Source of the DNA: Octopus vulgaris
Taxonomy: Eukaryota
DNA: 64,000 bases
Direction of reading: 5' to 3'
NCBI GenBank assembly: GCA_951406725.2
Contig: OX597814.1
Span: forward strand, 61,008,001 to 61,072,000
The position numbers and the translations under genes were made by a program. The stretch's first letter is position 1. Each line of letters starts with the position of its first letter. A model generated the notes under the pieces. That model made no database searches and was not told the origin of the DNA. It was given only the letters and a program-made list of their open reading frames with translations. Shown piece by piece: positions 3,272 through 63,561 of this stretch.

Positions 3272-3312
<41 letters not shown>

Positions 3313-3314
3313 AC

Positions 3315-6300
3315 ATGATATAAAGCAGAAATCTAATAGAAGCAAATACAGACTTAAATCTTCTAAAAATCCACCACCTATTTCGGAATTGGAAGTCTTT
3401 GAAAAAGACCTTTTTCAAGCTTATTAGAAAAATTAAATTCTGCAAATTCAACAACCAACTCCAGAGAGCTATGAATGAAAGAACTTGGATAAGATCTTTG
3501 TAAACTCCGATAAGACAAGAAACTTTTACGCGGTTGACAAAGATGTTTATAAATATCTACTTTAGAACAGTATTACAGACACCTACAAAAAAAGATAGCA
3601 CAAACTTCTATAAAGAGGTGAATTTGGAGGCAAGAAGAATTGCTAACAACCTTAAAGTTAGTGATAGGATAGAATATCTCATTCCACACCAACCCTTTAT
3701 TACCCTAAAAGACCACAAAGGTAATTTCAATAGAAACCCTAAATACAGACTAATTAACCCAGGTAAAACTGAAATAGGTATTTTTAGCAAATATATTTTA
3801 GATCGTATTTTAAGCAAGTTAAATAGTGAATTAAATTTACGGGTTTGGGGGAATAGCAAGTCAGTGATAGATTGGTTCAAAGGGATTAGCCATAAGCATA
3901 ACTGCAAATTTACGCAGTTTGATGTTGTCAATTTTTACCTGTCAATATCTAAGCCTGTGCTTCTAAAACCATTAGATTTTGCCAAACAATATGTCACCAT
4001 CGATAACTCAGAAATAGTTATTATCCTGCATGCAAAGAAATCCCTTCTTTTTTTATGTGGATTCCACATGGGGCAAAAAGAGTGAGTATTCTCTTTTTGA
4101 TGTACCAATGGGAGCATATGATGGGGCAGAGATATATATATGCTCATAGGAGCTTATATTTTGCATAATCTGCATCTAGAATTCCCTTTTATTAATGCAG
4201 GATTATACAGGGATGATGGTCTTATAGTCACCCATAATTTAAATGTCCATGAGTTAGATAAACTTATGAAAAATCTGATTACTTTTTTCCAAAGAATGGG
4301 CTTACAGATTACAATAGAAAGTAACCTTAAAAGCATAGATTTACAATTAGATAAATTTAAACCCTACCGTAAGCCCAATGGAAAGCTATGTTATATTAGC
4401 AAAGAATCTAATCATCCATCCATAATTCTTAAGAACCTAGTTAGTAATGGAGGAAGGTGAATATCATCAATTACTTTGGATGAGACAGCATTCCAAAATG
4501 TTGCGCCATATTATAATAATGCAATAAGGAAAAGTGGATTTTTGGAGAAGATCCAATATAGTCAAGTTAATTCTAGCAATAATAGACAACATAGAACTAG
4601 AACTAGGAAAGTTTTGTGGTTTAACCCTGCATTTAATATTGCTGTAAAAACTAATATAGGTAGGGAATTCTTAAAATTAGTTCCTAAGCATTTTCAATCT
4701 AGCCATAAGTTCTATAGAATATTTAACAGGAGAACACTGAAGGTTAGCTATTCTTGTCGCAAAAACTTTGCCTCTTTTATTAGCCAACATAACATGAAAA
4801 TTATTACAGACAACTACAGTACTGAATTTAATCTGAGGAACTGCAACTGCAAAGATGAAACTGTTGGAAGGAAAATGTCTTGAAAAAGGTATTATTTATA
4901 GAGCCAAAGTGCAAGTAGATGGCTCACAAGAATATAAAACATATACAGGGGCTTCTGAAAATTCATTCAATACTCGATTCTATTCCCACCAAAATTCTTT
5001 CTAATACCCTGAGAACAGGACAGCGATTAGTCTTGAAAAGCATGTCTGGGAATTGAAAGAGAATAACACCCATCCTTTCAATGTAACCTGGGAAATTCTA
5101 GAAAAAGTATCAGCATAGAGACATGGAATTTATAAAAGACCTATGAAATGTAATCTTTGCCTTTCAGAAAAGTTCTTCATCCTGTTCTAGGATAAAATTG
5201 CTTTGAACCAGAGATGCGAGCTCTTAAATTCCTGCAGGCACGCTGCAAAGTTTAAAATGTCAACCAACAAAATACCGTAAGGGTAAAATGTTTTGACTTT
5301 CGAAATATTTTTTGACTGTCGCATTTGAATTTGACTTTACACAGTATAGTTATTTTGCATTACAATGTTAGAATCTTAGTGTATATTTCGACTTCATTTT
5401 TAAGAAAGCCTTTGACTGTTTTACAAATTTAAGTTTAAGCTTCGCCGAGGTTTATTTTTATTGTTTACTCACATATTTAATTATGTTGTATCAAATTAAT
5501 GTACAATTTCCTTAGTTTTACATTTTAATATTATGTACACCGGACAGTTTTTTAAATTGCTTGCATATATACGTTATGATGTATACATTTATCTTGATGT
5601 GAAGATATGTCTCTATTTATGTGTATGTATGTATTGTAGGTATGTATATGTATGTATTTGTGTATGCATATATGTGTGTGTATGTGTATATATATAAATA
5701 TATGTATATATTTATATACATTTATATATGCATACATATATAAATGTGTATGTATATGTGTGTATATTTTTATATATGTGGGCATGTATTTGCGTACATA
5801 TTTTCATATATTTGTATATGTATTTATATGTGTGTTTATTTGTATGTATGTTTGTACTTATATAGATATACATGTAATTTTATGTGTTCATTTTTATGTG
5901 TTCATTGCGCAAGCTATACAGAGTATCTAATCATCCTTAGATACATTCAAACGCCATGATGTTACACTTTCTACCCCTATCTATTTTCTTCCCTTTCTCT
6001 CCCTAATTTTCTGTTTCTCTTTCTTTTACTGCTTTTTCTTCTTTTCCACTGTTTTCTTCCCCACCCCCCCTACTTAATATTTTCTGATTTTTTTCCTTCT
6101 CTTTCTTTCACCTGTAACAACTAACTTGTATAAGCATACGCCAGGAGATTTTGTGTGTGTGCATGCATACATATATATATATAAATGCATTTATAATAAG
6201 ATGATTTTATACCAAAATTTGTTCATTGCATGCAACCAGTCATTGAAAAGACCATTAATTGAAAGGACCAATGAAATAAAACCATTTTCAAATGTGTATC

Positions 6301-6430
6301 TATTAAACTAATTGTATATTTTTGCTTATAACTTTATTTTGGTTCTGTTCTAAACAGAACTGTCTGACGAACAGGCATGTGAAACTCTGAGTAACAGTTT
6401 TTGCAATATTTTTGCTGCTTTTTAATAAAG
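3315..6430 (+). mobile_element. Penelope-like retroelement, 5'-truncated and frameshifted (RT + GIY-YIG + 3' pseudo-LTR)
   Basis: ORF pieces: RLINPGKTEIG, FDVVNFYLSI, GLYRDDGL (RT), KVLWFNPAF, NCNCK, then GIIYRAKV...TYTGASENSFNTRFYSH (GIY-YIG). The coding part ends near 5280. The 3' non-coding part carries a hammerhead and AATAAA, followed by (TA)n. Confidence 0.88.
6358..6399 (+). ncRNA. Minimal type-I hammerhead ribozyme, intact core
   Basis: aactgt-CTGACGA-aca[ggca]tgt-GAAAC-tctga-GTA-acagtt. Stem I aactgt/acagtt; stem II aca/tgt with GGCA tetraloop; stem III ACTC/GAGT; GUA cleavage triplet at 6391-6393. Confidence 0.88.
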
Positions 6431-7399
6431 TATATATATATATATACACACATACACACACACACCCTTGACTTGCTGTAAAATGGGAAAGTAGCAGATC
6501 TAGATGAAATCACACCCAAAGCACTTGAAGAAGATATCTACATCTACTGACCCCCTTCTGTACTGAGGGGGTGGAGTATGAGCACAAGGCAGAGTGCTCC
6601 ATTATTGCCCAACTTTTCTTTGACGCCCCCCCCCCTGGAATTTCCACTGCCCCCATTTTTGGAACCACCGCTTTTGAGGAACCCCATTTTGGCCACTTGT
6701 ATTTGCAGTCATACTTTTTCGATTATTACCCAGCATTCATGATCATAGGTGAGGATAGGCACAAAACCAAATTGAAGATAGCATGCTTGGCTTTTTTATC
6801 CTCTCAAATGCTGGAACTGGCGCATTAATCTAGCATCTAGTTCAGCCTCCTACCTCTCATCACGCATGAATATGGCCCCATCCACTTGCCTTGTAGATGT
6901 TTCCACTAACATGCAAACTGCACTGGGAAGATTTCCTTGAGAGGACCAATGTCTCAGTGTTTTCAACTCTTCATTGTTTCTCTTGTTTCCCAACTTGTCA
7001 AACAGGAGTAACTATAACATCCAGCACATTTTCTTTTTCAACAAACCATTTCTGTTGACTTTTACTCCAAGCAGCTATGAGAATCTTGGCAGCTGTGTTG
7101 TTAAGTTCTTGTAATTAAATGTAAGATATACATGCATACATATGTATATTTATGTGCATGCAAGTAGGTGTGCATAAGTATGTATGTTTTTTTGTGTGTA
7201 TGTGTGTGTGTATAAAGTGCTAATCTAGGAACAAAAGAGAAGAGGTTCTCCCAAAGTACCTTATATCTGTCTTTCCAGGTGACTATTTTCAAGGTTTTGT
7301 TTTCTTTCTGTCTTATAGTGGAGATCATAAATGTTTTTATGTGATATAAAATCTTAACCGTTATTGTACAATATAATGTGTAATTATATATATTTACAT

Positions 7400-7433
<34 letters not shown>

Positions 7434-7809
7434 TTTATTTACAAGCAAAGTGAAACTCAGTTGGAATTGCTACTTGGAATGTAAAGAGTTGTACAAAGTA
7501 TTGCAAAACTGAGAGAAGCTTGTTGTTGTGTGTGTGCACACATATGTGTACACACGTGGGTGAGAAAGAGAGAGAGTGAGGGAACTGTATGAGTATAAAT
7601 GTGTCTGTGAAGTAAGAAACGTGTGTGTATATGTACTGCTTGTATATATGTGTGCAATCACTTTGAATGTGTTTTTTGTATGACCGCACATATAGACTAT
7701 GTGCGTGTGTTTGTACTGTGTCTGTGTGTGTGTATGATATAGGGAGATAGATAGATAGATAGATATGTGTATATAGATAGATATGTATGTATATAAATAT
7801 ATATATATA

Positions 7810-7983
7810 TTTAATAGAGGTCACAAAAGTGACAGAGGGTACTGACCAGCACCAGCTATTGCTAGAAACAAGAGTTAAAACAATCAAAAGCACTGTCTTA
7901 ATGACTGACAAGTGCTTTTGTGGATTTTGAATTAACTCTTATTTCTAGCAATAGCTGGTGCTGGTCAGTACCCTCTATTAAAT
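7810..7983. repeat. Fold-back inverted repeat between (TA)n tracts
   Basis: gagggtactgaccagcaccagctattgctagaaacaagagttaa versus ttaactcttatttctagcaatagctggtgctggtcagtaccctc. Unique tail at ~7984-8028 on the right. Confidence 0.9.
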
Positions 7984-10420: not shown

Positions 10421-10655
10421 TTTGTTGTATCTAGGGAAAGTCATTATGCCAATATAATTAACACACACACTGGTTCAATTCCACTCGTTTATTAGATATC
10501 TAATTATTTTGTTTATCAAAGCACTGAAGTAACGATGAAAGAACTTAGGCAAACAAAAACTAAACAACTGGATATTTAACCAATTGACTAATAATAAAGT
10601 GGAATTGTGTGTGTGTTAATTATATTGGTATAATGACTCTCCCAAGACAAAACAT
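10421..10655. repeat. Diverged inverted repeat (~75 bp arms)
   Basis: agtcattatgccaatataattaacacacacac...caattccact versus agtggaattgtgtgtgtgttaattatattggtataatgact. Confidence 0.8.
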
Positions 10656-14763: not shown

Positions 14764-15068
14764 GTAACAGAAAAGGGGGACATTTGATTATCCCCACATG
14801 GTGAGTTGTAACATATAAGGAATTAAAGAAGGAAAATGCACACACTTTACATTGTTTTAATATAATTTTTAATATATTGACTGGTTTTGCTTTTGCTATT
14901 CATGACATTAAGATTTAATTATTTAAATACGTATTTTCTTAAGAAGAAATTTTTTGGTCCATGTTGTGTGTGATATTTTTGAGTGAATGATACAAATAGT
15001 AGAAAAACTAAGGGAAGGTAATTGGTTATTGTTATTATTGATAACTGTTCAGCTTTCAGTAGGGGGTG

Positions 15069-15105
<37 letters not shown>

Positions 15106-16494
15106 AAAATTTGAAAACTAGTTTAGGGAGATGTATGTACAGTGATGTAATCATGAATTAAGATATGTAAAGATATCAGAGTTGGTGTATATTTAGATGT
15201 GTTCTGAATTTTCAATAAAAAAAGTTTATTTAGACATTCTTATAGAGAAGTTGTATCTTTGCACTAGTAGAAAGGGAAGACTGAAATTTGGTTTCTTTGT
15301 GTTCACTTAGAGGAATTTGTATTGTGGGAACCAGATCTGCTCTTTATGTAGCGTGGTTCTCCATCTCAAAGTCACACTCCTCTGTCCAGTATAGTGTTGT
15401 CCACAATCCAAGCAGGTTATTACATAAATTAGGTTCTCAGAGGCACAAGTGAAACTGGTTTCAATTGTGAATCTCTCTCCTTGTTTGAAAAGGAAATCCA
15501 AGCCTTCAAGTAGGTTGGGGCATGTTCCACAGTTAGGGCATCCGCATTTTTAACCATTAGTTTCGTGGTTGTTTTGTAAAGCTTCACATTTGTTAGAAGT
15601 CTCTTTAGTGATTTGTGATGCTTTTTGCATTTGATGAATTTATGAGTTTTCAGATTGTTGTTCATTTTTGGATTTCCAGTTAGTAAAGGGAGATTTTGCA
15701 CAATAGTGTTGTATGCCTCACTTTTTCTAGAGTTGTGGGTTGATATAAACAGTAGTGTTTTAACATGAGGTGTGGTTTTATGCTTTGTCTAATTTTTTGG
15801 TACACTTAATTCCCTTGTCTGTAAGTGAGGGTGGATATTGTCTTTCAGTAAGCGTTGTTTTGAGGTCTTGAAGACAAAGGTCCTGAGTAGTTCTATCAGA
15901 CACTATTGTGCAAATCCTTTTTGCCAAATTAAAGGGGATATTTATTTTGATGTGTTTCAGGCGGCATGAGCTAAAGAGTAGATATTGTTTCGATTCCATT
16001 GATTTATAATAGATGTCAGTTATAATTTGATAGTTGACTTTTTTTTGTCATGATATCCAAAAATGGGAGCTGTTCTTTGTTATATTCCTTTGTGAACTGA
16101 ATGTTACTATTTATATCATTTAGTGTTGATTTGAAGTCCAAGAGTTTACCAATGGTCTCCTTCCAAATAATAAAATAGTATCTTTTCTAGTTTTCTCTTA
16201 TGTAATGGTAAAATGCGTTTGCAAGATCAAGCTGCTTTCATTCCCATCGCATTTCCGCAAATAGTATGTACCATCAAATAGGAAATGATTGTTCTATAAT
16301 TTTTCTACTGTTCGAATCATTCACTCAAAAATATCACACACAGCATGGACCCCAAAATTTCTTCTTAAGAAAATACAATTTTTATATAATTAAACCTTAA
16401 TGTCAAGAATAGTGAAAGCGAAACCAGTCAATATATTAAAAATTATATTAAAAGTATGTTAAGTGTGTACATTTTCCTTCTTCGATTTCTTATA
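14764..16494 (-). mobile_element. Penelope-like element (Neptune-like), 5'-truncated, with inverted pseudo-LTR
   Basis: Minus-strand fragments: NIPFNLAKRICTIVSD (RT thumb), a Cys-rich linker CGCPNCGTC, and FTCASENLIYVITCLDCGQHYTGQ (GIY-YIG). A ~195 bp inverted repeat sits at 14814-15007 and 16300-16494, with an extra tail at 14764-14813 on one side only. Confidence 0.85.
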
Positions 16495-16502
16495 CACATA
16501 TA

Positions 16503-16540
<38 letters not shown>

Positions 16541-16623
16541 GGTCCCGGGTTGATTCGGGGTTAACCACAGTAAATAAGGTACTCAATACATAGCAGAGTA
16601 AAATTAATTTATTATATAGAAGG

Positions 16624-16674
16624 AGCTTCTACAGGACTAGAACTGTTTCATTCAAGAGAAATCTTCAGGAAGCT
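16624..16674 (-). ncRNA. Type-I hammerhead ribozyme (intact core), left arm of palindrome
   Basis: Minus strand: agcttc-CTGAAGA-tttc[tctt]gaat-GAAAC-ag[ttctagtc]ct-GTA-gaagct. Stem I is 6 bp and stem III is ACAG/CTGT. Stem II closes with a U-U mismatch. Confidence 0.78.
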
Positions 16675-16721
16675 TCCTGAAGATTTCTCTTGAATAAAAC
16701 AGTTCTAGTCCTGTAGAAGCT
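16671..16721 (+). ncRNA. Hammerhead copy with core mutation (GAAAC to AAAAC), right arm of palindrome
   Basis: Mirror of 16624-16674 except A at 16696 in place of catalytic G12. Confidence 0.7.
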
Positions 16722-16723
16722 CC

Positions 16724-16772
<49 letters not shown>

Positions 16773-16775
<3 letters not shown>

Positions 16776-17307
16776 GGTGTCCCAAAAAATGTATACACAG
16801 ACTGCAACAGTCTTTCATGCCAAGCATTAGAGAGGACTTTGAACAGGAAGAGTTTTATTTTCAGCAAGATGGGGCACCTCCACACTACCATCGCGATGTT
16901 AGATCCTTTCTTGATGGGATCTTGCCAAACAGGTGGATTGGACGGAGAGGTTTTGTCGAATACCCTCCACGTTCACCAGACCTCACACCACTAGACTTCT
17001 TTTTATGGGGATACCTAAAGGACAAAGTCTACGCACAGAAACCTGCAACAGTCGTTCAATTGAGGACAACCATTGAACATGAATGTACGAATATCCCAAG
17101 GGAATTGTTCCATGATGTGTGCCATTCCATCGCTTCGCGTTGTCAGCAGTGTCTGGAGCAGAACGGACATCAGTTTGAGAACATGCGATAACAAGACAAT
17201 AGAATGATATTTGTAAATTCTTTTACATGTTGAAAATTATTCGAATTATAATAAACCCCAAATTTACAATTATTTAAGGTGTGTATACATTTTTTGGGGA
17301 CACCCAG
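16773..17307 (+). mobile_element. Internally deleted Tc1/mariner element, DD41D-type transposase C-terminus
   Basis: TA-flanked TIRs cagggtgtcccaaaaaatgtatacaca / tgtgtatacattttttggggacacccag. ORF 16817-17191 reads QQDGAPPH...PPRSPDLTPLDFFLWG, with 41 residues between the 2nd and 3rd D. Confidence 0.9.
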
Positions 17308-18997
17308 TATATAGGTGCAGGCATGGGTGTGTAGTAAGAAGCTTGCTTCCCAATCACATGGTTCCAGGTTCAGTCCCACTGCATGGTACTTTGGGCAAGT
17401 ATATTCTACTATAGCCTTGGGCAAGCCAAAGCCTTGTCAGTAGAGTTTGTAGATGGAAACTGAAAGAAGCTTATCGTGTATTTATGTGTGTGTTTGTGTT
17501 AGTTTCTTGACCTTGACAACATGTGATAGCTGTAATGCAAGCGATGTCCTTCACTTCCAGTTTTCCATGAAACATGTCTGGTCACAGTGAAATATCACCT
17601 CACTTGGGAACAAAAGGTAAGGGTTGATGATAGAAAGGAATCTAGTCATAGCAGAAAATGTCACAACCAATTCTCTTTGACCCATGTATCCATGTGGTCA
17701 TTAAAACAATGATCTTGATGCCTTAGTCAGATAAAAAAGGACAGCACCTACAACCTTTTACAGGGGTCACCAAGACTACTTGTAGGAGGTGGAGTCATTT
17801 TCATTAGAATGAAAGCCTGGCCCAAATGCTTGCAGCAGTGTGAACCCAGTAGATTCACCTCAAAGGTTTGGTTACACCACTTACCTTGTAACATAGATTT
17901 AGAAATAAAACAATGGAATAAAGTATTGGCTTTTACAGTGTGTGTTGCTACTGTAGTTTCATTTCAAATAAATAAGACATGTTTAGCATAAAAGTAAAAT
18001 CCTCAGTTGGCTGTGCCTTAGATAAAACCAGTTTTCATCTCTATTCTGAATACAATGAGCTTTGTCTTTCATTTGTTTGGAGTCAATAAAATAAGTATCT
18101 TTAATATACTTGAGCTGATTCAATTGACTCTATCCTTGCCTTTACAAAAGTTGCTCTTATGCCAAATCCAAAGAAATCAATATTTTGTTTGGAAAAAGCA
18201 ACAGTTGGCTTTATTAGGAAATCTTTAAAATGTGTTGAAGGTCTGGCTGTGTTGTTTTCTATGTCTTTTTTTTTTTTTTTATTCAATTCAATTTTGTATT
18301 TCGTTTGTATTTTCGTTGTCTTTTGTTTGATGTAGGTTTACAAATTTTATTGTTGTTTATTTTTTTTATTTGATTTTCATTATTTATTTGTTTAAATTAT
18401 CAAAGTTTTTCATTTCAGTTTTATTTATTGTTTTTCTTTTTGCTTTTTGTGGAGTTTATTTTTATAGCTTAGTCTGGAAAGAAGAACCAGTGCCCATCCT
18501 TTCTCAGACTAGGCTGAGGACATGGATACTTCTGATGTTCAGCCTGAGTTTCTGCTTGGCAGGAATATCATAGGTTTGCAGTTGTAGGATAAACAGTAGA
18601 TAAATTGTTCATAAGATAACAATTAGAAGGACTTATGTAAGAGTGAGGGCACCTAGATTTTTAATTTAAACTGTTGTGATTTCAGTAACAGAAACTAAGA
18701 GAGTGTGTGCAAATGGTTATTGTTGTTGTCATTGTTGTTGTAGCTGCCATTGTTACAATCATTGTCATCACTATCGTTGTTATTTAACCATAGGTTAGTC
18801 CTCATTGAGCAAACATATGATCAAATATACAACAGCCATGACTATCTCATTTGGTTCTAGGCATTGTATAGTCTGGACTATATTATGCTATATATATCCT
18901 CCACTGACCTGAAATTGGAGAGGTGTATTCTGTATAATGGTACTTATTGCATGAAAAATTTTATTATAGAGAGGTGTTTAAGAAAGAGAATGTGAAA

Positions 18998-33053: not shown

Positions 33054-33864
33054 GTAAGTAATCCTTTAGAATGATACCTCTAACACTTCAGTAAATCAAT
33101 TCTGCTTTTCCTATGTCCTTTAACACTTTAACCCTTTATTTCAGGTTTATATGTTTGTTGATGTTTAACCCAATTTGGCCTTGATTGAGCTCTATGATAA
33201 AAAAAAACATTCCAGTCTTGATTTACCTATCATCTTTTCTACTCTAGGCACAAGGCCCGAAATTTGGGTGGGTGGGGGCCAGTAAATTAGATCAACCCCA
33301 GTACACAACTGGTACTTAATTTATCGACCCTGAAAGGATGAAAGGCAAAGTCGACCTTGGTGGAATTTGAACTCAGAATGTAAAGACAGACGAAATTTCA
33401 CTAAGCATTTCACCTGGTGTGCTAACGTTTCTGCTAGCTCACCACCTCTTGATTTACCTATCTTATTTTCAGACATAGCATATCAAGAGCTACTATATTA
33501 TGCAGTAGGCATGATTAATCAATATACTGTGAAAGTGGAAGATGCAGCATCAGCCAACTATACATATCAGTAATCCCTACACATTTTTTTTCTCTCTGTT
33601 TTTTTTACCTCTCAATCCTTTGTCGAAGAGTAGGCTCAAAACATCAAGACTTTTTCATTCTTCCTGAGCATTACACTAATACACCTACTTGTTGTTCCTT
33701 CACCTCTCTTAATCTTTTGTTTTCTGCAAATTTGAACCATGTGTGTCTATGTGCGTGTGCATGTGCACGCGCGCATGTGGTTTTTAGAAAACATGTATCT
33801 GAAGAAGAAGCACACTCTATGAAGTAGAGTAGTCAATGATTTTTTACTGGGGAAGACCAGTTTA

Positions 33865-33927
33865 TGAAGTTACCCTGGGTTTCCCATCCATAAAGGATTT
33901 AACTTTATGGTGTATCATCAGACCCCA
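33865..33927 (-). ncRNA. Type-I hammerhead ribozyme (intact core)
   Basis: Minus strand: tggggt-CTGATGA-tacaccataaag[ttaaatc]ctttatggatgg-GAAAC-ccagg-GTA-acttca. Stem I includes two G-U pairs; stem II ccataaag/ctttatgg; stem III ACCC/GGGT. Confidence 0.72.
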
Positions 33928-34009
33928 AGACCTGTTGGCCTAAGACCTCTTTAAGATGTAATGAGGCTTTCCCCTCCATATTTTAAAGAGGTCTTAAGCC
34001 AACAGATCT

Positions 34010-34072
34010 TGGGGTCTGATGATACACCATAAAGTTAAACCCTTTATAGATGAGAAACCCAGGATAATCCCA
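34010..34072 (+). ncRNA. Hammerhead copy with damaged stems II and III (GTA to ATA)
   Basis: tggggt-CTGATGA-tacaccataaag...ctttatagatga-GAAAC-ccagg-ATA-atccca. Confidence 0.6.
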
Positions 34073-34119
34073 TAAACCAGCCTTCCCCAGTAATATGTAT
34101 ATGTGTGTGTGTGTGTGTG

Positions 34120-56323: not shown

Positions 56324-56393
56324 TAGGGTAGCGAATATTCATTAGAAATATCACCACCAGTGGCCTAACATGTATAAATAGTCAATAGACAAC

Positions 56394-56557
56394 ATATTCT
56401 TATTTTAAAATAGTGTACATTTAAACACAAGAGATAACTACCCTTTAACAGGTAATTTTTACATGCTAAAAGAAGCTTCTTCTAGCATGTAAAAATTACC
56501 TGTTAAAGGGTAGTTTTCACTTGTGTTTAAATGTACACTATTTTAAAATAAGAATAT
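56394..56557. repeat. 164 bp spacerless palindrome (3 mismatches) centred on AAGCTT
   Basis: atattcttattttaaaatag...agaag|cttct...ctattttaaaataagaatat. (TA)n on both sides and a one-sided tail at ~56326-56393. Confidence 0.95.
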
Positions 56558-56935
56558 ATATATATATATATATATATTTAGTATAATTCAAGTAAAACCC
56601 CTGTAACATGTATTTAAGAACTCTTATGTTATTATTTGGCTACAATTTTTTCCTTTGCACATCTGAACTTTGGAATTCCCTTCCACAGTCTATTTTCTTC
56701 TTCAACATGACCCCCAGTCTTTTAAGTCTAATGTACATCATCACCTATTGACTTCTGTCTAGCATCCATTTTATTCTAGTAGCTCTATGTTTTCAGTGGT
56801 CTAAGGAACTTGTAACAAGCAAATGCTTTCAAAAAAAAAAGAAAGAAAGAAAGAAGAAAAACTACATATACTACAGTGGGGTATACTCCAGTGCTGGATA
56901 CATATGTGGAACTCCTCTTTGCATAAGATTAATAC

Positions 56936-57019
56936 AAGAATTATATAACATAAGAATGGAGGATATATCAGGTTTTAATAGAACCTGATATCCTCCATCC
57001 TCATGATATATTATTCTTT
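56936..57019. repeat. ~84 bp imperfect hairpin just 5' of a truncated CR1-type LINE
   Basis: aagaattatataacataagaatggaggatatatcaggtt versus aacctgatatcctccatcctcatgatatattattctt. Confidence 0.75.
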
Positions 57020-57029
57020 TATATATTTA

Positions 57030-58251: not shown

Positions 58252-59350
58252 GTTATGTTTAAAATTAAAGTTTAAATAGGAGACTTTAAAGTGTCATTTC
58301 CAAACCTTGTTTTGGGTCTGCCTCTCGTAGTGTGCCTAATATAATTCCATTATATTGTTCCCCAACCACTATGTAAGCCAAAACAATTGTTGTGCTAAAT
58401 AAAGCGTACAGTCCATTGTCTTCCCTATCAATCATTTAAAATAGATATATGTAAGTGTGTGTGTTTGCACCTCCTCATCTTGGTATCATGAGATAGTTGT
58501 AAACAAGTTTCACCACCATGCATGTAATGCCATTCATTTCCCACCTTCTCTGGAAACCTGTCCATTTGGTAACAAGGAATGCATCCATCCATAGAAAATC
58601 TGCCTGAACAAATCTCAGCTGACCAATGCAAGCATTGATAAGTGGCCATTAAAACAATATTATTATTATCATTATTATTAATCTGCAAGTTAGAGGTTTG
58701 TTACCACACTGGAGAAAATGCTTAGTGGCATTTCTTCCAGCTTTACACTCTGAGTTCAAATTTTGCCATGGTCAGCTTTGCCTTTCGTCCTTTTGGAGTC
58801 AATAAAATAAGTACCAGTTGAGCACTGGAGTTGAGGTAAATGATTAGCCCCACCTCTCTATATATGTTTGTGTGTGTGCATCAGGGGATGATTATGTTGT
58901 TAAATAATAGTAGTTGCAGCAACCAAAGCAACCACTTTATGTTACTACATCAGACAGGAGAGACAGACAGAGACACACAGACGGACAGGCAGAGAGAGAG
59001 ATTATAATTCTTCAGATTATTAACCTCGTCTTTACAGGTGAATCTTTTATGTTTTTTACAATATTTATGACTATACTAGATTTCTGATAAGTTAATTTAT
59101 TGGTAAACCAATAAATCAGCCTATATTGAAGAAATGAATCACCTGAAAATAATACTCCTGAATAATATATATCCAGCCCATTAAATAAGACCTGTAGTCA
59201 CTGTGATACACAAATTTGAAGTTTAACCAAACTTTTCTCACTGTGTGTGTGTATTATTTTGCTTAGGCATTGTGAGTCTAATAACCTAGTGTAGAACTCA
59301 ATATATGTATGTTTCAGAATAAAGTGTTAGCTGAGTATAGAGCAGTATAA

Positions 59351-59496
59351 AGAGATGACAAAGGAATAAATTATTATTGTATGAATTTCATTAGCTTACA
59401 GCTGTTTCACTGCATCTGAGTCACTACATCTTACAGTAGAAACAGCTGTAAGCTAATGAAGTTCATAACATAATCATTTTTTCCTTTGTCATCTCT
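59351..59496. repeat. Inverted repeat with hammerhead 3' halves (GAAACAGCTGTA) on both arms
   Basis: agagatgacaaaggaa...ttagcttacagctgtttcactg versus cagtagaaacagctgtaagctaa...ttcctttgtcatctct. Confidence 0.88.
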
Positions 59497-59852
59497 CTAA
59501 TGTGTAGTGTGTGTGTGTGTGTAGTTATAACAATAATAATCCTTGGATGGAATTTATATAAAAAAAGTTCTGTTTAGCCTATTCTGTCTTTCTGTCAGGA
59601 CTGAAGGAGGCATGTAAGGACGGAGAATCGTGAAGAGGTCACAGGATGTATGATGAAAGATTTCAGACAAAGGACACGAAAAATAAGAATAATAATAAGA
59701 AAGCTGAAGTGAACAAGCATAAGGTGCATGTTGTTAATTGGCAAAAAATATGACCATCCCCAAATATAACAATTTCTGTTTCAAAACACAATTTAACATC
59801 AGAATTATTACAAAACAAATACATGTGTATGTCTGTCTGTCTGTATGTATGT

Positions 59853-62683: not shown

Positions 62684-63561
62684 AATGTGTTTATATATGT
62701 ATGTATTTATATGTGTGTGTGCATACATACATAAGAGCAAAGGAATCTGATGCGCCTCCTCCAAATTCAATCTATTAATGGCATATTGAAAATTGCTAAC
62801 TCATTCCAAAGATTCTCCATCTGAGATTCTTTAAATGAATATAAGCACAAAACATCTCAACCACGTTTTTATAAACCCTGGGAACTGAAAAGGTTATACA
62901 ATTATCTTATCAACCAGCTTCAACTTCATTAAGAACTCAAATCTAAAAAAAAACCATACATACATACATACATACATATACACACACATACATGCATGCA
63001 TGCATGTATGATTATCTTGAGATTTAAGTTCTTAATGCAGTTCAAGCTGGTTGCTAACAAAACAGTTCCGCTTTTTAAGTTCCCAAAGTTTGTAAATATG
63101 TTGTTGAGTTGTTGTGTACATATTTTCATATAAAGAATGCATGCATTTTATAAATGTTCAGTGTCACATTCATTAAAGTCCTCTTACATAGTTTTTAAAT
63201 GAAAATTGTTCCCTAGATTAATAGTTTTTTTGGGTTTTTTTTATTATTTTGCGTTGTTACTGAAACATGAAATCACCGAATGTAGAATACAATTACATAT
63301 ATTACAATGAATTGTTTTATTTAATATGAGAGAAATGAGTTAAAAATCGTTTGGTATGTGTCACAGCACTTTTTTTTACGTCTTCACACCCACTAACTTT
63401 AGAACCTGGCCACACCTCTGTATGTGCTTATGTATGTGTGTGTATGAATATGTTCAGTATATAATATTTTTGAATAATTAAAGGAAATCAGATATTCATA
63501 ATTAACTGATCTTCCTGTATTTTCTTTTGCCTAAAGCCAGGAACTTTTCACAACCCTCTCG

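What the first reader, a model, noticed from the sequence alone, without database searches (positions are those of the whole stretch)
16540..16732. Spacerless palindrome made of two head-to-head hammerhead ribozymes sharing one stem-I strand
Seen: a 120 bp palindrome (1 mismatch). Its centre, GAAGCTTC, is the 5' strand of stem I for a type-I HHR on each strand. The minus copy has a complete core (CUGAAGA...GAAAC...GUA). The single mismatch hits catalytic G12 of the plus copy. AATAAA and a ~70 bp one-sided tail follow the minus copy, and the whole unit lies in (TA)n. Known: PLE pseudo-LTRs carry minimal type-I HHRs and often occur as inverted pairs with a 3' tail. Inference: this is an ORF-less ~190 bp ribozyme-only PLE derivative, made by snap-back at the self-complementary stem-I strand. 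In a read-through transcript the antisense arm is made first and should sequester the ribozyme.
Basis: partly seen in the sequence, partly recalled or inferred. Interest (0 to 1): 0.8.

Follow-up and report, generated by a model that had tools for sequence, protein, structure and literature searches.

The report
Hammerhead palindrome from Penelope-element stump
This 120-base mirror-image stretch is real and carries a hammerhead self-cutting RNA motif, but it is likely an ordinary leftover of a very common Penelope-like jumping gene, made when two short copies of its end were likely joined head to head, possibly at the point where the element's RNA starts.

Summary
The palindrome (16613-16732, one mismatch, no spacer), the intact minus-strand type I hammerhead motif, the G12 change in the plus copy, the one-sided tail and the (TA)n flanks are all confirmed. 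Tail plus arm is a very abundant repeat. Its hammerhead (U·U at the base of stem II) and a hairpin in its tail match Hydra-clade Penelope-like elements (PLEs), including ORF-linked relatives found here. Head-to-head truncated copies with a one-sided tail are a published PLE layout.

The palindromic junction is a small minority form of the family (about 0.2-2% of summed contig depth). The native stem-I strand is self-complementary only over AGCT, so joining of two cDNA ends fits better than snap-back. Other palindromes in the window have their centres elsewhere.

One lead goes further. The centre lies 29 nt after a TATAAA box in the native sequence, and 6 of 8 copies of a related family from another host start 7-10 nt before the core. 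Such stumps may be run-off cDNAs that end at the transcription start. Cleavage and the start site are untested. Verdict: new member of a known kind.

The parts
16509..16536 (.). left (TA)n target run (TA-rich from about 16498)
16538..16612 (-). one-sided 75-bp tail, by analogy the stretch between the two reverse-transcription start sites
   Evidence: contigs in X4 and X12 match from 16538, and other copies join (TA)n at 16603/16607; tail concept from PMC11167929
16580..16599 (-). tail hairpin ACUC...GAGUA, 69 nt after the core; ORF-linked relatives have GCUC...GAGCA at 73 and 72 nt
   Evidence: background 18 of 752 window segments
16608..16613 (-). AATAAA in an AT-rich stretch; role as a poly(A) signal not supported or excluded
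   Evidence: present at a similar place in L069, absent in L020
16613..16672 (-). left arm: direct copy of the element end (sense is the minus strand)
16624..16674 (-). type I hammerhead motif with intact core; predicted cut between 16630 and 16629
   Evidence: family variants at 3% or more fall only in loop III (16641) and loop II (16657)
16671..16674 (.). AGCT, the overlap of the two arms; last native bases, 29 nt after a TATAAA box in native copies
   Evidence: loose ends behind 16674
16673..16732 (+). right arm: inverted, tail-less copy that merges into (TA)n through TATATA
16671..16721 (+). second hammerhead copy, G12 changed to A at 16696; not a common family variant
   Evidence: no variant listed at the mirror position 16649
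16727..16772 (.). right (TA)n target run

Best explanation
The unit is a real spacerless palindrome with a one-sided tail in (TA)n, and it is likely the stump of one insertion of an abundant Hydra-clade Penelope-like retroelement, in which two short cDNA copies of the hammerhead-bearing end were likely joined head to head through the self-complementary 4-mer AGCT. Steps: (1) an autonomous partner's endonuclease would cut both strands of (TA)n (inferred; partner not seen). (2) One target end would prime at the far start site and give arm plus tail, the other at the near site and give the tail-less arm (two end classes shown in the family; priming inferred from in vitro work on another PLE). (3) Both cDNAs stop at the same base, the 5' edge of stem I (shown by the sequence); I think this is the RNA's 5' end, a TATA-directed transcription start (inferred, about 40%). 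(4) The two 3' ends would anneal over AGCT and be filled in (inferred, about 55% against snap-back). (5) One copy later lost G12 (shown to be uncommon in the family). The ribozymes are passengers: a read-through RNA is predicted to fold into a 58-bp hairpin that cannot cleave. In the parent element the motif likely cleaves slowly, aided by dimer formation through its palindromic loop III.
For: Family abundance: 1718 and 1701 contigs laid in runs X14 and X7; tail plus arm held in 20 of 24 listed runs from 10 studies. Two end classes joined to (TA)n, at 16538 and at 16603/16607, as expected from two start sites (PMC11167929). Native non-palindromic continuation behind 16674 in X14 (18 contigs) and X12 (1 contig, 129 loose nt). 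U·U at the base of stem II occurs in 14 of 26 Hydra-clade rows of Craig et al. File S2, and ACAG/CUGU-A in 3 of 26. The same core with other stems sits 3' of a Hydra-type endonuclease in L020 and on both sides of a full Hydra-type ORF in L068/L069, and both have the tail hairpin at the same distance. 18 of 120 core matches in metagenome contigs also form stems I and II, in 9 stem variants, against a mean of 0.22 in 5000 shuffles. Fixed start: 6 of 8 distinct copies of the L020 family begin 7-10 nt before the core, 2 of them with a short inverted piece. The layout is published (PMC3846280, PMC8557442, PMC4209133).
Against: No ORF or autonomous parent of this exact family was seen, so the clade rests on cis features, and a U on each side of stem II also appears in some non-Hydra rows of the PMC4209133 supplement (garbled columns). 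Loop III (8 nt) is longer than in any of the 26 Hydra rows (3 nt at most). Rfam finds no hammerhead. Two other hammerhead palindromes in the window do not have their centre at the stem-I edge, and L010 and L020 extend far upstream, so run-off at a start site is not the only route. The TATA tally was made after the fact and partly by eye; Drosophila Penelope has a TATA-less internal promoter (PMC2377424). The inverted arm here ends 6-10 nt inside the commonest tail-less ends. X14, X7 and X4 may be the source of the window and so not independent.
Confidence: 0.68

Rival explanations
1. Snap-back or self-priming (first reader; also proposed for rotifer PLE palindromes): one cDNA or an antisense template folds back at stem I and copies itself, and the new arm then joins (TA)n.
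For: Spacerless centre. PMC3846280 reads such palindromes as self-priming. The inverted arm ends at TATATA, inside the commonest tail-less ends.
Against: Only AGCT is self-complementary natively; the last 10 native bases have no predicted fold, while two ends anneal over 4 bp. Both target strands are cut and extended in vitro by another PLE (PMC11167929).
Confidence: 0.17
2. The short form (hammerhead plus tail, about 140 bp) is a SINE-like non-autonomous family with its own fixed start, spread by a Hydra-clade partner. The palindrome is an occasional double insertion of it.
For: In the low-depth run X4 a single contig covers the whole 137 bp and ends 1 nt past 16674; continuations behind 16674 are mixed (agreement 0.67 and 0.59). 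6 of 8 copies share a start in the L020 family. Non-autonomous PLE derivatives are known.
Against: A longer native upstream exists (129 loose nt in X12; 18 contigs in X14), and the TATA box lies outside the short form, so a short copy would lose it.
Confidence: 0.2
3. The palindrome itself is the mobile unit (a ribozyme-only or MITE-like element amplified whole).
For: Contigs reaching past the centre have summed depth of 5,000-7,600 (X14) and about 1,600 (X7), well above the lowest contig depths (12-46), so this junction likely recurs.
Against: That is about 2% and 0.2% of the depth at the mirror positions. The tail is one-sided. A transcript would be a closed hairpin. Two centre-spanning contigs differ from the window by gaps (table 8).
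Confidence: 0.07
4. Assembly fold-back artefact.
For: Perfect spacerless palindromes can arise in assembly (own knowledge); no listed piece bridges the centre by 31 nt on both sides.
Against: One mismatch between arms, a one-sided tail, contigs of two runs reaching past the centre, and older palindromes of the same layout with 82-96% arm identity in the window.
Confidence: 0.02

Closest known systems
Typical EN+ PLE insertion with inverted 5'-truncated copy, palindromic junction and one-sided tail (Arkhipova et al. 2013, PMC3846280, passages and Discussion read; Craig et al. 2021, PMC8557442, passages and one section read)
   Same: Head-to-head inverted copy, overlap at the junction, tail at one end only, AT-rich or (TA)n target.
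   Different: Here both copies are cut down to about 60 and 135 bp, nothing of the ORF is left, the overlap is 4 nt, and the tail is 75 bp against 30-40 bp.
Hydra-clade PLEs (PMC8557442, section 11, Files S1, S2, S7; Penelope-13_HM carries an inverted copy with a hammerhead on each strand)
   Same: (TA)n target, hammerhead near the 3' end, U·U at the base of stem II, ACAG/CUGU-A stem III, GCUC...GAGC-type hairpin after a TATAT stretch.
   Different: Loop III is 8 nt with a palindromic middle (3 nt at most in File S2); no sequence match to the hammerhead end of Hydra-1_Obim; no ORF seen for this family.
Metazoan min-HHRs of PLEs (Cervera and De la Pena 2014, PMC4209133, parts 1-2 of 4 and supplement passages read)
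   Same: Type I motif, mostly solo and tied to truncated PLEs; pairs on opposite strands 100-700 bp apart are reported; dimer-prone helix III.
   Different: Helix III is a real 4-bp stem, helix II is short (3 bp), G10.1-C11.1 is absent, and the two motifs overlap instead of lying 100-700 bp apart.
Poseidon PAc of Anolis, in vitro (Frangieh et al. 2024, PMC11167929, main text read)
   Same: Works like it by inference: two internal start sites define the tail, both target strands are cut and extended, uncut RNA is the template.
   Different: Another clade; the text I read does not treat run-off at the RNA start or joining of two cDNAs.
Non-LTR retrozymes (bioRxiv 10.64898/2026.07.22.740005, part 1 of 5 and passages read)
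   Same: ORF-less, type I hammerhead, PLE-derived.
   Different: Defined by head-to-tail tandem units; this unit is head-to-head and single.

Membership tests
Type I hammerhead ribozyme | core CUGANGA, GAAA, NUH | tested here: met
   minus copy complete; plus copy lacks G12
Type I hammerhead ribozyme | three helices closing the core | tested here: met
   stem I 6 bp, II 3 bp, III 4 bp; -7.3 kcal/mol against an MFE of -8.5; z-score not different from shuffles
Type I hammerhead ribozyme | G10.1-C11.1 pair | tested here: not met
   U·U, family-wide; the same in 14 of 26 published Hydra rows
Type I hammerhead ribozyme | match to an Rfam hammerhead model | tested here: not met
Type I hammerhead ribozyme | stem covariation | tested here: inconclusive
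   within the family only 2 loop variants and no stem change; across families 18 of 120 core matches pair, in 9 stem variants, against 0.22 expected, but these are not direct homologues
Type I hammerhead ribozyme | self-cleavage | not testable with these tools
   needs an in vitro assay
EN+ PLE insertion | inverted 5'-truncated copy joined head to head | tested here: met
EN+ PLE insertion | tail at one end only; two end classes in the family | tested here: met
   75 bp, longer than the published 30-40 bp
EN+ PLE insertion | target-site duplication | not testable with these tools
   both ends lie in (TA)n
Hydra clade | ORF with RWK, DKT, CxCX5C, CxxC/CxH and no CCHH | not testable with these tools
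   no ORF at the locus and no genome held; met by relatives L068/L069 (DKS for DKT) and, for the C-terminus, L020
Hydra clade | (TA)n target and hammerhead near the 3' end | tested here: met
min-HHR | helix III absent or 1-2 bp | tested here: not met
   4 bp plus 8-nt loop
Non-LTR retrozyme | head-to-tail tandem units, each with a hammerhead | tested here: not met
   no direct repeat of the unit in the window
MITE | inverted repeats at both ends of the unit | tested here: not met
   the tail lies outside the palindrome on one side only

The most novel reading that the evidence does not exclude
Hydra-clade PLEs start transcription just 5' of their hammerhead, and because reverse transcription begins inside the nearby tail, they shed short run-off cDNAs like retroviral strong-stop DNA. 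Two such cDNAs, primed on opposite target strands and possibly held together by a hammerhead dimer, join through end microhomology. Palindrome centres and stump ends would then map PLE transcription starts genome-wide and explain how inverted pseudo-LTRs form.
Probability: 0.3. Interest if true: 0.62.

Novelty: new member of a known kind. Interest (0 to 1): 0.33.

Why it matters
As a locus it is ordinary: one dead stump among many, in a layout already described for PLEs. It matters in two smaller ways. How PLEs make their inverted and tandem ends is called an open question in PMC8557442 and PMC2377424, and this very abundant, homogeneous family offers a direct test of run-off plus end-joining against self-priming. 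It also points to an uncatalogued, likely Hydra-clade family whose hammerhead Rfam misses, and whose palindromic copies would make long double-stranded RNA if transcribed (predicted).

Tried and rejected
No whole genome is held, so no copy count or junction census was possible. No second copy of the family in the window. Exact family motifs gave 0 hits in viral, metagenome and prokaryote genome contigs. Rfam: 0 at gathering level; at E up to 10 only hairpin-type matches, no hammerhead family; the microRNA matches were rejected as generic hairpins below their cut-offs. No RNA holder listed; X12 is only guessed to be RNA, so expression is not shown. Family motifs were not found in paper text or, apart from one chance 11-mer, in the Craig et al. 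supplement; line breaks can hide matches. Lunse et al. 2017 on dimeric PLE hammerheads is not held; I saw only the review PMC6765202 (passages). File 1 of the PMC4209133 supplement was not searched, bioRxiv supplements are closed, and Repbase/Dfam and the Octopus vulgaris repeat library (PMC13282606, passages only) were not seen, so the family may already have a name. L099 looked like a second head-to-head pair but is tail-to-tail. A MAFFT alignment of 8 hammerheads was too poor for pair counts, so no covariance model was built. Pfam did not recognise the window's decayed Hydra-like ORF pieces. Searches for a published run-off or twin-priming model for PLEs listed none by title or abstract; I did not read all listed papers. 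Depth decline from 16640 to 16674 was rejected as evidence of truncation because it fits an edge effect.

Full report
Observation. The window holds a spacerless palindrome at 16613-16732 with 60-nt arms and one mismatch. The minus strand from 16674 to 16624 reads as a type I hammerhead: 6-bp stem I, CUGAAGA, U, 3-bp stem II with a 4-nt loop, U, GAA, 4-bp stem III with an 8-nt loop, and GUA at the cut site. The mirror copy has A for G12 at 16696. A 75-bp tail (16538-16612) lies on the left only, and (TA)n flanks both ends. A generic descriptor finds 3 motifs in the window (6364+, 33921-, 16668-) against a mean of 0.045 in 200 shuffles. Against the motif: Rfam finds no hammerhead and the isolated motif folds no better than shuffles. 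The host looks like an octopus; that label is recalled from a SINE near 17320-17480 and comes from no call.

The family. No genome is held. Tail plus left arm is held at 0.9-1.0 of 10 sampled words by 20 of 24 listed runs, from 10 studies and 6 organism codes; 9 rows may be the source of the window. I laid 4 of these runs on 16538-16705. X14 and X7 gave 1718 and 1701 contigs with summed depth near a million, which the tool says is not a copy number. Only three variants reach 3%: one in the tail, one in loop III, one in loop II, none in core or stems. So U·U at the base of stem II is the family state and the G12 change is not a common variant. The loop III variant strengthens a predicted two-molecule helix (-15.2 against -12.8 kcal/mol), and two monomers are predicted to pair through stem III (-27.0 against 2 x -8.5). 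Copies join (TA)n at two kinds of place: with the tail (16538) and without it (16603, 16607; 32 contigs in the rows shown; 13 of 62 loose-end rows were shown).

The centre. Behind 16674 most contigs leave the window's sequence: 18 in X14, 20 in X7 and 1 in X12 with 129 loose letters. X14 and X12 give the same non-palindromic continuation. The native 5' strand of stem I is therefore AGCUUC, and only AGCT is self-complementary; the 8-nt centre is a product of the palindrome. Depth just past the centre is 7,592 (X14) and 1,669 (X7) against 355,716 and 935,934 at the mirror positions, about 2% and 0.2%. It drops again after 16687, as expected for short-word contigs at a perfect palindrome (inference). 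The junction is thus real, likely recurrent, and a minority form. No listed piece bridges it by 31 letters on both sides.

Which element. In Craig et al. 2021 File S2, 14 of 26 Hydra-clade rows have CUGANGAU...UGAAA with U·U, 3 have ACAG/CUGU-A, and 20 of 21 Repbase and 6 of 6 new Hydra families are listed with (TA)n targets. A scan of metagenome contigs with the core alone (34 of 64 parts scanned) gave 120 matches; 18 also form stems I and II, in 9 stem variants, against 0.22 expected. One sits 3' of a Hydra-type endonuclease end (L020), and one contig has it on both sides of an ORF with RWK, DKS, CxCX5C and CxxC/CxH (L068/L069). Both carry a GCUC...GAGCA hairpin 72-73 nt after the core; the finding has ACUC...GAGUA at 69 nt, a change on both sides of one pair; background is 18 of 752 segments. 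Of the 17 motif copies examined in that call, 6 had the pattern (the finding, window 33921, L020, L069 and two in L099 at other distances). A similar hairpin is visible by eye in Hydra-2_Amil, Hydra-2_Ajap and at the start of Hydra-1_Ajap. The window itself holds a decayed Hydra-like element at about 3.3-6.4 kb with a hammerhead before (TA)n. The parent ORF of this family was not seen, so the clade is inferred.

What is known. Head-to-head inverted copies with palindromic junctions and a one-sided tail are the typical PLE layout (PMC3846280; PMC8557442). Hammerhead pairs on opposite strands and solo motifs from truncated PLEs are reported (PMC4209133), and Penelope-13_HM has both. In vitro, a Poseidon element cuts and extends both target strands, starts at two internal sites that define the tail, and does not need ribozyme cleavage (PMC11167929). 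Earlier notes of this scan reached similar verdicts in other genomes; they are leads, not support.

Mechanism. I favour two cDNAs, one from each start site and each target strand, both ending at the A of AGCT and annealing there. The last 10 native bases have no predicted fold-back, while two ends pair over 4 bp (-4.8 kcal/mol). Self-priming, the published reading for rotifer palindromes, stays possible.

The lead. Why stop at stem I? In the native sequence TATAAA begins 29 nt before that A, close to the usual TATA-to-start distance (own knowledge). In the L020 family from another host, 8 distinct copies were recovered (9 rows; L057 and one L099 copy are the same locus and were merged). Six begin 7-10 nt before the core: four by direct match of 7-9 nt, two by a 5-nt match plus an inverted piece reaching about -10. 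Two extend far upstream. With random truncation of mean 100 nt the chance is about 2e-5, with mean 30 nt 0.009. Those starts lie about 33 nt after CATAAA. Among 12 families with known upstream sequence, counted by eye and after the fact, 3 have an exact TATAWA and 7 have at most one mismatch 29-37 nt before stem I; background for a 7-nt range in this window is 1.2% and 12.7%. Against: the palindrome at 33844-34093 has its centre about 47 nt upstream of the core, the one at 59348-59499 inside the ribozyme; the L020 family seems to come from one host; Drosophila Penelope has a TATA-less promoter; a short master copy would give the same fixed start. Searches listed no paper with this model, but most subscription journals are not covered.

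Verdict. Real, well explained as a PLE stump, new member of a known kind. The ribozymes are untested and predicted to be inert at this locus. Interest 0.33; the run-off model has about 30% probability and would deserve about 0.6.

Noticed in passing
window 56327-56557: A second unit of the same layout: (TA)n, about 67-bp one-sided tail, spacerless palindrome of 82-bp arms (3 mismatches), (TA)n. Unrelated sequence and no hammerhead core, yet its centre is also GAAG|CTTC. It may start at a hammerhead cut site (13 of 14 letters match the 3' strand of the finding's stem I); unexplained.
   Followed up: partly
window 33844-34093: Older palindrome (84% arm identity) with a hammerhead on each arm, intact on the minus arm, with a tail-type hairpin on one side; centre about 47 nt upstream of the core.
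   Followed up: partly
window 59348-59499: Palindrome whose arms each hold only the 3' half of a hammerhead (GAAACAG-CTGTA); the centre falls inside the ribozyme.
   Followed up: partly
window 3310-6430: Decayed Hydra-like PLE: broken RT and endonuclease frames (3.3-5.3 kb), hammerhead at 6364 (+), then (TA)n at 6431.
   Followed up: partly
window 7834-7976, 10423-10654, 56932-57022, 62826-63138: Further diverged local inverted repeats; the first lies between (TA)n runs with short one-sided flanks.
   Followed up: no
window 16773-17307 and 14814-16494: The finding is flanked by a short Tc1/mariner-like element with about 34-bp inverted ends (label recalled from motifs; no Pfam hit) and by a 198-bp inverted match between 14814-15010 and 16297-16494.
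   Followed up: no
L099:79-249: Two hammerheads of one family arranged tail to tail, the less common orientation.
   Followed up: partly
L076:15-200: Hammerhead followed by telomere-type (TAACCC) repeats in a locus with tandem units of about 175 bp, like endonuclease-less PLEs.
   Followed up: no
L060 and L061 (one 4-kb contig); L041, L056, L078, L103, L118: The same U·U hammerhead type in more GC-rich contigs without (TA)n, once as a direct pair about 2.4 kb apart.
   Followed up: no
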